Source: a virus (lineage: Duplodnaviria > Heunggongvirae > Uroviricota > Caudoviricetes). Taken from it: DNA of 40,343 nt. Below are positions 32,890 to 35,776 of this stretch, in pieces. Position 1 is the first letter of the stretch, and each line of letters starts with the position of its first letter. Under the pieces are notes generated by a model that was not told the origin of the DNA, did no database searches, and saw only the letters and a program-made list of their open reading frames with translations. The stretch is from IMG/VR virus record IMGVR_UViG_2718218360_000013. One strand, written 5' to 3'. Both the position numbers and the translations under genes were made by a program.

Positions 32890-33420
32890 TTATTTATTCA
32901 GTCCGGCGTCCTGTTCAAAAGGCTCGACATAAAAACTTTCAGCGCCTTTATTCACCTTAATACCGGCAATGCCTTTCACTGCATCCGGCTCCGCTAGGAC
33001 CGCTTCCTTGTTCACTTCCTCTTTCGTGCGGATGAATCGCTCAAGCCCCATACGGCGCAGCATTTCAATCACACCTTCCACATCACGGCTGACGCTGCAT
33101 GATGGATTTCCCAGCCGCCATGACACTGTTCCGGTGGTCAGATTGGCTGTTTTGGTTTTGCCGCCGTTCGTCAGCTCATCGCGGTTGGTTTTGCACCAGT
33201 CCTGAATCCCCTTAAAAAGCACTTTGATTTCTTTTTTAAGGTTTTCAATCTGCGGCGTATAACGGGCGGTGATTTCTGCCACTTCATCATTCATCGCCGT
33301 TTCCAGCCGTAGCGCCTCTCGCTGAATATCGCCCAGGGTACGGATATCGCGGCTGACTTCTTCGCGGGTCTGCGGTGCAGCCTCGGCTGCGGCCTTTAAT
33401 TTTGTAACACGTTTAGCCAT
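32890..33420 (-). CDS. gam: Gam host-nuclease inhibitor (Ku-like DNA end-binding protein)
   Basis: RLETAMNDEVAEITARY...ANRDELTNGGKTKTANLTTGTVSWR...RFIRTKEEVNKEAVLAEP closely parallels Mu Gam. Confidence 0.85.
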   Translation of the reverse strand: MAKRVTKLKAAAEAAPQTREEVSRDIRTLGDIQREALRLETAMNDEVAEITARYTPQIENLKKEIKVLFKGIQDWCKTNRDELTNGGKTKTANLTTGTVSWRLGNPSCSVSRDVEGVIEMLRRMGLERFIRTKEEVNKEAVLAEPDAVKGIAGIKVNKGAESFYVEPFEQDAGLNK

Positions 33421-33431
33421 TTTGTTTTTCC

Positions 33432-33725
33432 TTATTGCAGTGTGCCTGATGCTTTATGCACGCGGTGGCGTTTAATGATGGCATCCGCCCCAAAAGCCTG
33501 TACAGATGCCTGAAATTCCGCTGAGAGAAACTGAATAATTTCAGGACTGTGATACTGGAGAATACTTGCATAAACGCCACAGAGTGACGTCGGCCTGTTA
33601 TTCGTATCACGTTCTGTTTTTACATCCACACCAATCTTTTCATGCACTTCAACACAGTCATTGCCTGCCGGTTTTTCGTCATGCGAAACATGCTTAAATT
33701 CAAAAATAACGCGTACTTTGCTCAT
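33432..33725 (-). CDS. Hypothetical protein, paralogue B (N-terminus MSKVRVIFEFKH)
   Basis: Shares N-terminal ~14 aa with the upstream gene; AGGGG SD-like sequence 8 nt upstream. Confidence 0.5.
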   Translation of the reverse strand: MSKVRVIFEFKHVSHDEKPAGNDCVEVHEKIGVDVKTERDTNNRPTSLCGVYASILQYHSPEIIQFLSAEFQASVQAFGADAIIKRHRVHKASGTLQ

Positions 33726-33729
33726 GGAA

Positions 33730-34002
33730 TTACCCCTGCTGATTAAATTCATTACCTTTAATAACCCCGGAACGCATGCTCATATCTTTCATGAGCGCAC
33801 TGGCTTTCATTGCCACAAGTTCAGCAAAGTCTCTGCTTTCCGCGAGCATAACCACCCCAAAAATCATGGCGGGTCCATCACCTTTCTGCTTTATCCCGGT
33901 TGAACGTATGTCCAGACTTACCCCCATGCGCACTGTTCCATCAGCGTTTTTATGGATAACGTGCTCCTTGTATTCGAAAATAATGCGTACGACTTTACTC
34001 AT
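33730..34002 (-). CDS. Hypothetical protein, paralogue A (N-terminus MSKVVRIIFEYKEH)
   Basis: Tandem paralogue of 33432-33725. Confidence 0.5.
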   Translation of the reverse strand: MSKVVRIIFEYKEHVIHKNADGTVRMGVSLDIRSTGIKQKGDGPAMIFGVVMLAESRDFAELVAMKASALMKDMSMRSGVIKGNEFNQQG

Positions 34003-34280
34003 CCTCTGGTCCTCGTTCTGTTTGGATAACTGACCCGGCGTCTGACCTCACGGCAGAACCGAATCATGGCATTAAAGGCTTCTTCCTCCGTCACCGCTTC
34101 CGGTATCCCCGGAACCAGTAACTGCTCCTGTTCATCACGTCCATGACGCGCCATAACCTCAATCACATGCCGTACCGTGGCAGGCTTTCCGGCAACTATC
34201 GGCAATGCACCTTCCGGCAGGACGTAACCAAACTCAATAAGACCACTCGACCACGCCCATGCAATGAGATTTTTTTTCAC
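33999..34280 (-). CDS. Hypothetical early protein (93 aa)
   Basis: ORF with start/stop coupling. Confidence 0.4.
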   Translation of the reverse strand: MKKNLIAWAWSSGLIEFGYVLPEGALPIVAGKPATVRHVIEVMARHGRDEQEQLLVPGIPEAVTEEEAFNAMIRFCREVRRRVSYPNRTRTRG

Positions 34281-34281
34281 C

Positions 34282-34548
34282 TCACACCTCCCAGTAAACC
34301 GTGCAGCCGCTGATGCGGGTGGCCTTCACACGGCGGCGCAGGCCGTTGGTCTGTATGGTGATTTCAATTTCACCGGTTCCCTGCACGTTGCCTACCGGCG
34401 GCGTGGTTTTCAGTGCAAAACGTTGCGGATAGCGCTTACTGCGTTCCAGTACCGCACCGGCAAGTTCGGTCAGACGGCGCGCGCTGTTCAGGGAGTCGAA
34501 TAAATTCATTTTGTTACCGCAGGATTGCATATTCATATAACACCTCAT
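34282..34548 (-). CDS. Hypothetical early protein (88 aa)
   Basis: ORF. Confidence 0.4.
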   Translation of the reverse strand: MRCYMNMQSCGNKMNLFDSLNSARRLTELAGAVLERSKRYPQRFALKTTPPVGNVQGTGEIEITIQTNGLRRRVKATRISGCTVYWEV

Positions 34549-34776
34549 TTAGCTGACTTGTTTCGCACCAACAGAACGGCATATTCCGCTGTAAACGTCT
34601 GTCGCACCTTCGCGATCAAGTCCGGCAGATATCACCATTCGTGTGCGGTCATTAAATTCAAAAAGTAAATCGCCACATTCTTTATTTTCGGCCAGTGAAA
34701 TCACCTTCACGTTATCGAAATTAACCAGGTAAAAGCGTCCGTAAATATCAGGAATATTAAATACCGCCATAATCAC
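34549..34776 (-). CDS. Hypothetical early protein at the position of Mu kil (75 aa)
   Basis: Immediately downstream of the B-like gene with ATGA overlap. Confidence 0.4.
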   Translation of the reverse strand: MIMAVFNIPDIYGRFYLVNFDNVKVISLAENKECGDLLFEFNDRTRMVISAGLDREGATDVYSGICRSVGAKQVS

Positions 34777-35705
34777 ACCTGTGAGAGTAATTCAGGGTTG
34801 GTATAAACCTCTTTAAAGGCCGCATTAATATGTTTTTCTGTCAGCGCCGCGCCTTCACCGCTGGCGGTGAGCCACGCCTGGTTAAGCGTATGTGTCAGAA
34901 CGCGTAACGCTCCCGGCTTTTCAGCGATAGCCTGCATGACGGCCAGCTCGGCCTCACCACTGATCCCCCACGCCCTGGCAATGGCCAGCACATCCGCCTT
35001 TTTGGCCTTGCGAAGTTGTTTTGTACGGGCAAGACGGCTGAACAGGCGCGATAAATCATCAAAGGCGCGGCGTCCACCTTTAAACAATCCGCGCGGGTTA
35101 CCAATAAGCACCATCCCGATCCCCGTGGCGTCCTGAATTGCCCGGAGTTGCTCCAGACCGTCAATACCCAGATGATCCGCCTCATCCACAATCACCAGTC
35201 CACGCGTTCCCATCAGGCGACGGCGGATGGCGCGGGATAATGCCCCTTTGTTCGCGCGGGTGTAATCAATCCCCAGCGCATCGGCCAGCTCCAGCAGACA
35301 CTCCGTGACGCTGGAGTGCGCGGGTGACAGGGTGATCATCCAGGTGTTTGGTTGCTCCTGGCAGTAATTACGGGCAGTGGCCGTTTTACCCACACCCGGT
35401 ACGCCCACAATAACGTTAATACAGCCCATCAGACGAACCGCCTGAAACAGTGCGCGCAGCTCCTGGACTGTCTGCGTTTCCACAAACTGCGGCGGTTCCG
35501 GCAGTGCGCTTTGTTTATTCCAGTTTTCATACCAGGAACGCAGGGAAGCAGCCACAGCGGCGTTATCGCCTTTATATTTCCCCTTGCGGAAAGCCGATAA
35601 TGTGCCGTCGGAAATTCCCGCCTCTCTGGCGATGGCATACTGCGTCAGTACGCCGCCATCAATAAGTTCATCAATGGTCTTGATTACATCGTTAATATCA
35701 GTCAT
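34773..35705 (-). CDS. MuB-like transposition ATPase
   Basis: Walker A GVPGVGKT and Walker B LVIVDEADHL; N-terminal HTH; directly after the transposase gene. Confidence 0.9.
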   Translation of the reverse strand: MTDINDVIKTIDELIDGGVLTQYAIAREAGISDGTLSAFRKGKYKGDNAAVAASLRSWYENWNKQSALPEPPQFVETQTVQELRALFQAVRLMGCINVIVGVPGVGKTATARNYCQEQPNTWMITLSPAHSSVTECLLELADALGIDYTRANKGALSRAIRRRLMGTRGLVIVDEADHLGIDGLEQLRAIQDATGIGMVLIGNPRGLFKGGRRAFDDLSRLFSRLARTKQLRKAKKADVLAIARAWGISGEAELAVMQAIAEKPGALRVLTHTLNQAWLTASGEGAALTEKHINAAFKEVYTNPELLSQV

Positions 35706-35776
35706 ATTATTAACCTCTCATTTGATACCTTGTTTAATCAAATAACCTGAGTCGCCGCTCGGGTTATTTTTTTATT

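What the first reader, a model, noticed from the sequence alone, without database searches (positions are those of the whole stretch)
33432..34002. Tandem paralogous small genes upstream of gam
Two adjacent ~90-aa ORFs begin MSKVVRIIFEYKEH and MSKVRVIFEFKH (about 75% nucleotide identity over the first ~35 nt) and then diverge completely. The second is translationally coupled to the first. Duplication followed by C-terminal diversification is typical of proteins that target variable host factors such as defence systems or nucleases. They sit next to gam, itself a host-nuclease inhibitor.
Basis: seen in the sequence. Interest (0 to 1): 0.5.

Follow-up and report, generated by a model that had tools for sequence, protein, structure and literature searches.

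The report
Paralogous small early genes, Mu-like prophage
Two neighbouring small genes in the early operon of a Mu-like prophage of E. coli are real, old, full-length duplicates of one uncharacterised phage protein family. The family is probably related to phage Mu gp7, and its function remains untested, so this is a modest, fairly ordinary finding.

Summary
On the minus strand, ORF1 (33730-34002, 90 aa) and ORF2 (33432-33725, 97 aa) lie between kil and gam in the early operon of an Sp18-like Mu-type prophage, found in 231 of 5426 complete E. coli genomes.

They do not "diverge completely". Profile comparison shows homology over 76 columns (hhalign 95.9%, E 5.5e-9) at about 17-20% identity. 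AlphaFold gives ORF2 a long beta-hairpin plus two helices (pLDDT 84.5), and the weak ORF1 model has the same topology.

ORF1 matches PHROG 4107 and ORF2 matches PHROG 2230, both of unknown function. Mu gp7/E6 is a probable remote relative. No Pfam, NCBIfam, PADLOC, PDB or viral-structure match gives a function.

The family is confined to Mu-like prophages of Enterobacterales, in one or two copies. Alleles reassort, dN/dS is 0.2-0.5, and the hairpin tip and C-terminal tail vary most. In relatives, DUF3164 replaces gam, so the link to gam is positional.

Best reading: non-enzymatic accessory early proteins that bind a host or phage partner. An anti-defence role is possible but unsupported.

The parts
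33730..34002 (-). ORF1, 90 aa. It is the divergent, lineage-specific paralogue (PHROG 4107).
   Evidence: ORF list. PGAP calls the same CDS, WP_000049432. phrog_4107 E 1.1e-61, full length. dN/dS 0.23-0.42. Low-confidence AF2 model with strand-strand-helix topology.
33432..33725 (-). ORF2, 97 aa. It belongs to the wider family (PHROG 2230) and is the copy that is kept when only one is present.
   Evidence: ORF list (the longer ATG at 33752 is not used by PGAP or by homologues). PGAP CDS WP_000049306. phrog_2230 E 6.2e-40. AF2 pLDDT 84.5, pTM 0.71: strands 4-21 and 24-39, helices 48-58 and 60-77. dN/dS mostly 0.22-0.75; one near-identical pair with dS 0.03 gives 1.28.
33972..34002 (-). First 31 nt of ORF1, encoding conserved strand 1 (MSKVVRIIFE).
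   Evidence: 25 of 28 aligned bases are identical to the ORF2 5' end; 2 of 500 codon shuffles reach the score. Codon identity 6 of 8 against 3.4 expected, P 0.06.
33698..33725 (-). First 28 nt of ORF2, the counterpart of the ORF1 5' segment (MSKVRVIFE).
33726..33737 (-). ORF1/ORF2 junction. AGGGG (Shine-Dalgarno-like) lies at 33737-33733, the ORF1 stop TAA at 33732-33730, and a 4-nt spacer at 33729-33726.
   Evidence: Read from the sequence. Coupling is inferred, not shown.
33999..34280 (-). 93-aa gene (PHROG 1518). Its stop overlaps the ORF1 start (ATGA). It is a frequent partner of the family in related phages.
   Evidence: phrog_1518 E 3.8e-43. No Pfam or NCBIfam hit. Homologues lie next to family members in L095, L102 and L008.
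34003..34076 (-). 3' end of the 93-aa gene plus the ORF1 ribosome-binding site. This stretch survives as a 74-nt 'spacer' after kil in prophages that lack the 93-aa gene.
   Evidence: 60 of 74 bases identical to the L006 spacer and 53 of 74 to the CI5 spacer. In CI5 it is joined directly to the ORF2 homologue.
32890..33420 (-). gam (Mu Gam-like DNA-end-binding protein), the downstream neighbour.
   Evidence: PF07352 E 1.5e-41. phrog_491 E 3.5e-70.
34282..34548 (-). kil homologue, upstream in the same operon. PGAP start is at 34536.
   Evidence: phrog_2679 E 7.8e-46. PGAP CDS.
34773..37867 (-). Mu B (34773-35705) and transposase A (35777-37867). These define the early operon that also carries ORF1 and ORF2.
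   Evidence: ORFs. PGAP names them 'AAA family ATPase' and 'Mu transposase C-terminal domain-containing protein'. No convincing promoter or terminator on the minus strand between B and gam.

Best explanation
ORF1 and ORF2 are two real, co-transcribed, full-length paralogues of a small family (about 90-100 aa). The family is confined to Mu-like transposable prophages of Enterobacterales: PHROG 2230 for ORF2, PHROG 4107 for ORF1, and probably PHROG 10252 (Mu gp7/E6) as a remote branch.

They lie in the repressor-controlled early operon (ner-A-B-...-kil-93aa-ORF1-ORF2-gam). They would therefore be made only on induction or infection, together with the transposition proteins, Kil and Gam.

The predicted fold is a long two-stranded beta-hairpin packed on a kinked, roughly 30-residue helix, followed by a disordered tail. 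The conserved positions are core, turn and helix-cap residues. No polar residue is invariant.

The most likely mechanism is therefore non-enzymatic. A small, probably dimeric scaffold binds a host or phage macromolecule through its fast-evolving hairpin tip and C-terminal tail. It would act as a dispensable 'semi-essential early' accessory function, and the two copies would have different partners or specificities.

Shown: gene reality, paralogy, fold prediction, operon position, distribution, and the variability pattern. Inferred: expression timing, dimerisation, binding function, and dispensability.
For: Coding and selection:
- PGAP calls both CDSs.
- dN/dS is 0.2-0.5 for well-diverged allele pairs.

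Paralogy:
- BLASTP E 8e-4.
- hhalign of the close families gives prob 84%.
- The ORF1 family against the ORF2-plus-bridging family, with no shared sequences, gives prob 95.9%, E 5.5e-9 over 76 columns.
- Bridging sequences came from the exhaustive profile search.

Fold:
- ORF2 AF2 model: pLDDT 84.5, pTM 0.71.
- The ORF1 model has the same strand-strand-helix order.

No enzyme signature:
- The family alignments have no invariant polar residues.

Context:
- The genes lie between kil and gam, inside the A-B early operon, tightly packed, with no internal promoter or terminator.
- The literature describes this B-to-C region of Mu as the semi-essential early region, holding kil, gam and other mostly unassigned genes (PMC4553209).

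Accessory character:
- E. coli CI5 has only ORF2.
- Serratia, Edwardsiella and Kluyvera prophages have a single copy.
- Among 80 gam loci from other species only 3 carry the family, and the slot upstream of gam holds many unrelated small ORFs.

Variable surfaces:
- Hairpin tip and tail are 35-48% identical between alleles, against 92-100% for strand 1.

ORF1 and ORF2 alleles occur in all combinations.
Against: - There are no functional data of any kind for this family or for Mu gp7 (literature searches).
- Binding, dimerisation and dispensability therefore rest on analogy and on the absence of catalytic residues.
- ORF1 is basic (pI 9.45), so nucleic-acid binding is not excluded.
- The ORF1 model alone is poor (pLDDT 54).
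Confidence: 0.5

Rival explanations
1. The two proteins are inhibitors of host defence systems or nucleases. They are duplicated and diversified to cover variable targets, and they act alongside Gam.
For: - They are early-operon neighbours of kil and gam.
- Copy number is variable and alleles are divergent.
- The hairpin tip and tail are the most variable parts.
- The upstream partner gene carries the PHROG label 'host nuclease inhibitor'. No curated family supports that label.
Against: - dN/dS is 0.2-0.5, with no sign of diversifying selection at gene level.
- They are not strongly acidic, so they are not DNA mimics (pI 9.45 and 7.0).
- They resemble no solved structure, and the PDB includes the solved anti-CRISPR and other anti-defence proteins.
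- gam is replaced by DUF3164 in close relatives that keep the family member.
- No anti-defence profile library was available for a direct test.
Confidence: 0.17
2. The proteins serve the phage's own DNA transactions or regulation. Examples are a nucleic-acid- or transpososome-binding factor that boosts replicative transposition, or a regulator of early gene expression. On this view they do not target host factors.
For: - They are co-transcribed with A and B.
- ORF1 is basic (pI 9.45).
- A long beta-hairpin plus helices is compatible with a nucleic-acid-binding arm.
- Strand 1 is strongly conserved across the family.
Against: - The family is absent from most Mu-like prophages that have the same A, B and Gam (77 of 80 gam loci).
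- ORF1 is dispensable in natural variants.
- ORF2 and other members are neutral or acidic.
Confidence: 0.2
3. ORF1 and ORF2 form an obligate heterodimer: one functional unit made from two diverged subunits, kept adjacent and translationally coupled for stoichiometry.
For: - The pair is adjacent, with a 4-nt gap and a Shine-Dalgarno-like motif inside the ORF1 3' end.
- The tandem pair is present in at least 226 of 232 matching E. coli records.
- The fold has only two strands and a helix, so it probably needs a partner.
Against: - Single-copy prophages exist in E. coli CI5, Serratia, Edwardsiella, Kluyvera and IMG/VR contigs.
- Divergent ORF1 and ORF2 alleles are found in all combinations, which argues against tight co-evolution.
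- Multimer prediction could not be run.
Confidence: 0.12
4. The similarity is chance or a shared translation-initiation signal, and one or both ORFs are not genes.
For: By eye, visible identity is limited to about 12 residues. The synonymous-codon excess at the 5' end is only marginal (P 0.06).
Against: - Profile-profile comparison gives E 5.5e-9 over 76 columns.
- The ORFs are conserved at dN/dS below 0.5 across prophages with dS up to about 1.
- PGAP calls both, and each has a PHROG family.
Confidence: 0.01

Closest known systems
Phage Mu gp7 (old name E6; AAF01086, Mu 4784-5047; PHROG 10252), function unknown
   Same: - Similar size (87 aa).
- Same operon segment between kil and gam.
- The N-terminus MAKVIIEIK resembles MSKVRVIFEF and is identical to that of the Kluyvera and L008 family members.
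- Weak but full-length collinear matches: phrog_2230 E 0.009, hhalign E 4.5e-4 over 72 columns, iterated HMM E 8e-4. Control small proteins give E > 0.1.
   Different: - hhalign probability is only 15-33%.
- ORF1 and ORF2 do not hit phrog_10252 at E <= 1.
- Mu has one copy, separated from gam by gp8 and gp9.
- Membership is probable, not demonstrated.
PHROG 2230 and PHROG 4107 (phage protein families, 'unknown function')
   Same: ORF2 matches phrog_2230 (E 6.2e-40) and ORF1 matches phrog_4107 (E 1.1e-61), both over full length. The bridging proteins from Serratia and the IMG/VR contigs also hit phrog_2230.
   Different: PHROGs treats them as two separate families. Here they are shown to be homologous over their whole length.
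Other small early-operon proteins of transposable phages that act on host processes. These include Mu Kil and Gam (PMC4553209) and, from my own knowledge, Pseudomonas D3112 Tip and DMS3 Aqs1.
   Same: They are small, non-enzymatic, encoded just after the transposition genes, expressed early, often dispensable, and highly variable between related phages.
   Different: There is no sequence or structural similarity to any of them. The comparison is functional analogy only, and no target is known here.

Membership tests
PHROG 4107 (ORF1) | Significant full-length match to the family profile | tested here: met
   E 1.1e-61, residues 1-90 on profile positions 1-90 of 90.
PHROG 2230 (ORF2) | Significant full-length match to the family profile | tested here: met
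   E 6.2e-40, residues 3-97 on profile positions 1-88 of 89.
One superfamily joining ORF1 and ORF2 | Homology over the whole domain, not only the N-terminus | tested here: met
   hhalign of A10 against A9: prob 95.9%, E 5.5e-9, 76 columns. Both AF2 models have the same strand-strand-helix order.
Mu gp7/E6 family (PHROG 10252) | Significant sequence similarity to Mu gp7 | tested here: inconclusive
   gp7 against phrog_2230 gives E 0.009. hhalign gives E 4.5e-4 to 1.7e-3 with prob 15-33%. The iterated HMM gives E 8e-4. ORF1 and ORF2 have no hit to phrog_10252.
Mu gp7/E6 family (PHROG 10252) | Position in the early operon between kil and gam | tested here: met
   Mu order is kil-gp6-gp7-gp8-gp9-gam. 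Window order is kil-93aa-ORF1-ORF2-gam.
Mu Gam / host-nuclease inhibitor (PF07352) | Match to the Gam profile | tested here: not met
   ORF1 and ORF2 have no Pfam hit at E <= 1. Only the downstream gene matches PF07352.
Known anti-defence proteins (anti-CRISPR, anti-restriction and similar) | Sequence or structural similarity to a characterised inhibitor | tested here: not met
Known anti-defence proteins (anti-CRISPR, anti-restriction and similar) | Inhibition of a defence system or nuclease | not testable with these tools
   This needs plating or biochemical assays.
Anti-phage defence system components (PADLOC) | Match to a defence-protein profile | tested here: not met
   No hit at E <= 1 for ORF1, ORF2 or the 93-aa protein.
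DNA-binding beta-arm or ribbon folds (HU/IHF, ribbon-helix-helix, AbrB) | Structural similarity to these folds | tested here: not met

The most novel reading that the evidence does not exclude
The gp7-like hairpin-plus-helix scaffold may be a previously unrecognised class of host-targeting early proteins of Mu-type phages. On this reading the conserved strand and helix core displays a hypervariable hairpin tip and C-tail. The Sp18 lineage would have duplicated the gene to neutralise two different host nucleases or defence systems, in concert with the 93-aa partner and with Gam or DUF3164. That would also give the first function for Mu gene 7, unassigned since the early region was sequenced.
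Probability: 0.15. Interest if true: 0.6.

Novelty: new member of a known kind. Interest (0 to 1): 0.3.

Why it matters
The Mu 'semi-essential early' region has held unassigned small genes for decades.

This work shows that PHROG 2230 and PHROG 4107 are one family, and that PHROG 10252 (Mu gp7) probably belongs with them. The family has a confident predicted fold, a defined variable surface, and natural one-copy and two-copy variants. Together these turn three sets of 'hypothetical proteins' into one testable unit, and they point to Mu gene 7 as a tractable model.

The practical weight is modest. The family is narrow (Enterobacterales Mu-like prophages, including those of EHEC O157), and nothing here indicates an unusual mechanism.

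Tried and rejected
- Pfam, NCBIfam and PADLOC scans of ORF1, ORF2 and their neighbours found nothing for the two ORFs.
- tblastn against 50,697 phage records found only two Stx-phage records that carry an inserted Mu-like element.
- Word-indexed homologue searches returned only close E. coli relatives.
- The exhaustive profile search of 1.84 billion representative proteins gave only 18 hits. Three of them (P0064-P0066) are long proteins matched in 7-13 separate short stretches, and I treated them as spurious.
- AF2 of ORF1 with its shallow family alignment was poor (pLDDT 54), so that model was not used for fold searches.
- The search for related loci with the family alignment failed because no conserved 7-10-column stretch exists. 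I replaced it with a Gam-anchored survey and a scan using the bridging subfamily.
- I tested whether the tandem small ORFs upstream of gam in Erwinia and Pantoea, Mu gp6 and gp9, and the window's 75-aa and 93-aa proteins belong to the family. They do not (hhalign E 0.1-0.8).
- I considered gene conversion or a 'linker' sequence as the cause of the 5' nucleotide identity. It is not supported (P 0.06).
- I first read the 74-nt spacer in CI5 and L006 as ancestral intergenic DNA that the 93-aa gene reads into. I rejected this in favour of a relic of a deleted 93-aa gene, because L095-type homologues have the same C-terminal tail.
- Seven literature searches found no functional study of these genes or of Mu gp7.

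Full report
WHAT IS THERE

All the genes concerned are on the minus strand. The window carries an almost complete Mu-type transposable prophage. Its order is repressor (38156-38869, + strand), ner (37869-38117), transposase A (35777-37867), B (34773-35705), a 73/75-aa gene, kil (34282-34548), a 93-aa gene (33999-34280), ORF1 (33730-34002, 90 aa), ORF2 (33432-33725, 97 aa), gam (32890-33420), then gp10-, gp11- and gp12-like genes. The left end abuts the host ureC gene.

The same 571 bp occur in 231 of 5426 complete E. coli genomes, mostly EHEC strains. RefSeq annotates the same two CDSs there as hypothetical proteins. In the phage collection only two Stx-phage records carrying an inserted Mu-like element match. 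Phage Mu itself does not match at the DNA or tblastn level.

CHECK OF THE OBSERVATION

Both ORFs and their N-termini are as described. The first 31 nt of ORF1 align with the first 28 nt of ORF2 at 25 of 28 identities with one codon gap. Only 2 of 500 codon shuffles reach that local score. BLASTP of the two proteins gives E 8e-4 over 55 residues.

The ORF1 stop TAA is followed by 4 nt and then the ORF2 ATG, with AGGGG at -12 to -8. Coupling is therefore plausible, but it is inferred. The true ATGA overlap is between the 93-aa gene and ORF1. The operon is tightly packed, and no convincing promoter or terminator lies on the minus strand between B and gam.

THEY ARE FULL-LENGTH PARALOGUES

The statement that the proteins 'then diverge completely' does not hold.

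- An exhaustive profile search of 1.84 billion representative proteins found only 18 hits. Among them were 93-98-aa proteins (P0067, P0068, P0070, P0072, P0073) that bridge the two ORFs. The whole set aligns collinearly with few gaps.
- I compared a profile of the ORF1 family alone with a profile of ORF2 plus the bridging sequences, with no ORF1 sequences in the second. The result was hhalign probability 95.9%, E 5.5e-9, over 76 columns, at 17% identity.
- AlphaFold2 on ORF2 with the joint alignment gave pLDDT 84.5 and pTM 0.71. The model has a long beta-hairpin (strands 4-21 and 24-39), helices 48-58 and 60-77, and a disordered tail.
- The low-confidence ORF1 model (pLDDT 54) has the same order of elements.
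- ORF1 is the most divergent branch, at 12-19% identity to all other groups. It was seen only in Sp18-like prophages, all but one from E. coli (the host of L006 was not identified).
- ORF2 belongs to the wider PHROG 2230 family. ORF1 belongs to PHROG 4107.

RELATION TO PHAGE MU

Mu has kil, gp6, gp7, gp8 and gp9 between B and gam. Mu gp7 (old name E6, 87 aa, MAKVIIEIK...) gives weak but full-length collinear matches to the family:

- phrog_2230, E 0.009
- hhalign, E 4.5e-4 over 72 columns
- iterated HMM, E 8e-4

Family members from Kluyvera and another Enterobacteriaceae genome begin with the same MAKVIIE. Five unrelated small early proteins and four Erwinia/Pantoea ORFs used as controls give E 0.1-0.8 over short stretches. 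I regard gp7 as a probable remote homologue, not a demonstrated one. No function is recorded for gp7. It is listed as a hypothetical protein in the Mu record.

DISTRIBUTION AND ARCHITECTURE

I anchored a survey on Gam and fetched 80 loci from other species (47-59% Gam identity). Only three carry a detectable family member: Edwardsiella, Kluyvera and an Enterobacteriaceae isolate. The slot just upstream of gam holds many unrelated small ORFs.

Among close relatives the following arrangements occur:

- kil-93aa-ORF1-ORF2-gam: the window, L087-L090 and L093
- kil-spacer-ORF1-ORF2-gam: L006, L091, L092 and L094
- kil-spacer-ORF2-gam: E. coli CI5
- kil-(177 nt)-single copy-gam: Serratia
- kil-90aa-single copy-DUF3164: IMG/VR contigs L095 and L102, where PF11363 (E 6e-79) replaces gam

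The 74-nt 'spacer' is a relic of the 3' end of the 93-aa gene (60 of 74 and 53 of 74 identities). In CI5 it is fused directly to the ORF2 start. That is what a deletion between the similar 5' ends of ORF1 and ORF2 would leave.

The 5' nucleotide identity itself is mostly explained by conservation of strand 1. Synonymous codons are identical in 6 of 8 positions against 3.4 expected (P 0.06).

EVOLUTIONARY MODE

- Pairwise dN/dS is 0.2-0.5 for all well-diverged pairs of both genes. This is purifying but relaxed selection.
- ORF2 has two allele types in E. coli, about 60% identical. ORF1 has at least three.
- The allele types occur in all combinations, so recombination separates the two genes.
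- Between alleles, strand 1 is 92-100% identical, the distal half of the hairpin 36-48%, and the C-terminal tail 35-36%.
- Across the family there is no invariant polar residue. The conserved positions are hydrophobic core residues, the turn glycine, and the GP and SP helix caps.

WHAT IT DOES NOT RESEMBLE

- No Pfam, NCBIfam or PADLOC hit.
- No PDB sequence relative.
- Foldseek against BFVD and PDB: best E 0.12 and 0.87.
- The proteins have no hydrophobic character suggesting membrane insertion (GRAVY -0.07 and -0.35) and are not strongly charged (pI 9.45 for ORF1 and 7.0 for ORF2). They are not DNA mimics.

MOST LIKELY MECHANISM

The facts are these: early-operon position beside kil and gam, small size, lack of catalytic residues, a conserved core with a variable hairpin tip and tail, patchy distribution, and natural loss of ORF1.

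The best-supported reading is a pair of dispensable accessory early proteins that act by binding a host or phage macromolecule. They are probably dimers formed by sheet extension, and the two copies probably have different specificities. Confidence is about 0.5.

However, the specific claims of C-terminal-only diversification and of a functional tie to gam are not supported. An anti-defence or anti-nuclease role remains a minority possibility (about 0.17).

Other rivals are a role in the phage's own DNA transactions or regulation (about 0.2) and an obligate ORF1-ORF2 heterodimer (about 0.12, weakened by single-copy phages and free allele reassortment). Chance similarity is excluded.

NOVELTY AND VERDICT

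The genes are already catalogued as hypothetical proteins in two PHROGs. Three things appear to be new: the two PHROGs are one full-length family, Mu gp7 probably belongs with them, and the family has a confident fold prediction and a mapped variable surface. I found no literature on their function.

This is a new member of a known kind, namely the small accessory early genes of transposable phages. It is not a new kind of system. Interest is 0.3.

Noticed in passing
window 33999-34280 (-): The 93-aa gene upstream of ORF1 matches PHROG 1518, labelled 'host nuclease inhibitor', but has no Pfam or NCBIfam support. It overlaps the ORF1 start (ATGA). Homologues lie next to a family member in IMG/VR contigs L095 and L102, and in reversed order in L008. 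This suggests a recurring gene pair.
   Followed up: partly
L003 3295-3368; L006 5927-6000; window 34003-34076: A 74-nt 'spacer' after kil in prophages that lack the 93-aa gene is a relic of that gene's 3' end (53-60 of 74 bases identical). In E. coli CI5 it is fused directly to the ORF2 homologue, as a deletion between the similar 5' ends of ORF1 and ORF2 would leave.
   Followed up: yes
L095 4303-4941; L101 4116-4754; L102 4302-4946: In closely related Mu-like viral contigs the gene after the family member is a DUF3164 protein (PF11363, E 6e-79 for the L095 copy; the L101 and L102 copies are near-identical in sequence but were not scanned), not Gam. The genes further downstream are the same as in the window, so the gam slot is exchangeable.
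   Followed up: partly
window 39129-40343 (-) and 39915-40193 (+): The prophage left end abuts the host urease alpha-subunit gene (ureC). Rfam finds the 5' ureB sRNA family antisense within it (86.5 bits, E 3.4e-21).
   Followed up: no
L014 3064-3511; L036 3097-3511: Erwinia and Pantoea Mu-like prophages also carry a tandem pair of small ORFs directly upstream of gam: 69 aa in both genomes, plus 78 aa in Erwinia and 75 aa in Pantoea (each read from an internal Met of the longer listed ORFs where needed). One of the pair has a CxCPxC motif. hhalign detects no relation to the family studied here (E 0.1-0.8).
   Followed up: partly
L054 3179-3475; L058 3242-3478; L060 3223-3477; L065 3224-3478: Serratia, Salmonella and Citrobacter Mu-like prophages have a very acidic small ORF of about 80 aa directly upstream of gam. 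It is unrelated to the family studied here and could be a DNA-mimic-type candidate.
   Followed up: no
L091 2290-2709; L006 5290-5709; L102 3098-3508: Some Sp18-like prophages carry an extra 136-139-aa gene next to kil (upstream of it in L006 and L091). The L102 copy resembles Mu gp8 by eye. It has no Pfam hit.
   Followed up: no
E. coli genomes: Some E. coli genomes hold two to four copies of this prophage region (for example OkiPb01696 with 4 places), and one copy lies on a 167-kb plasmid (NZ_CP074995.1). This is consistent with an actively transposing element.
   Followed up: no
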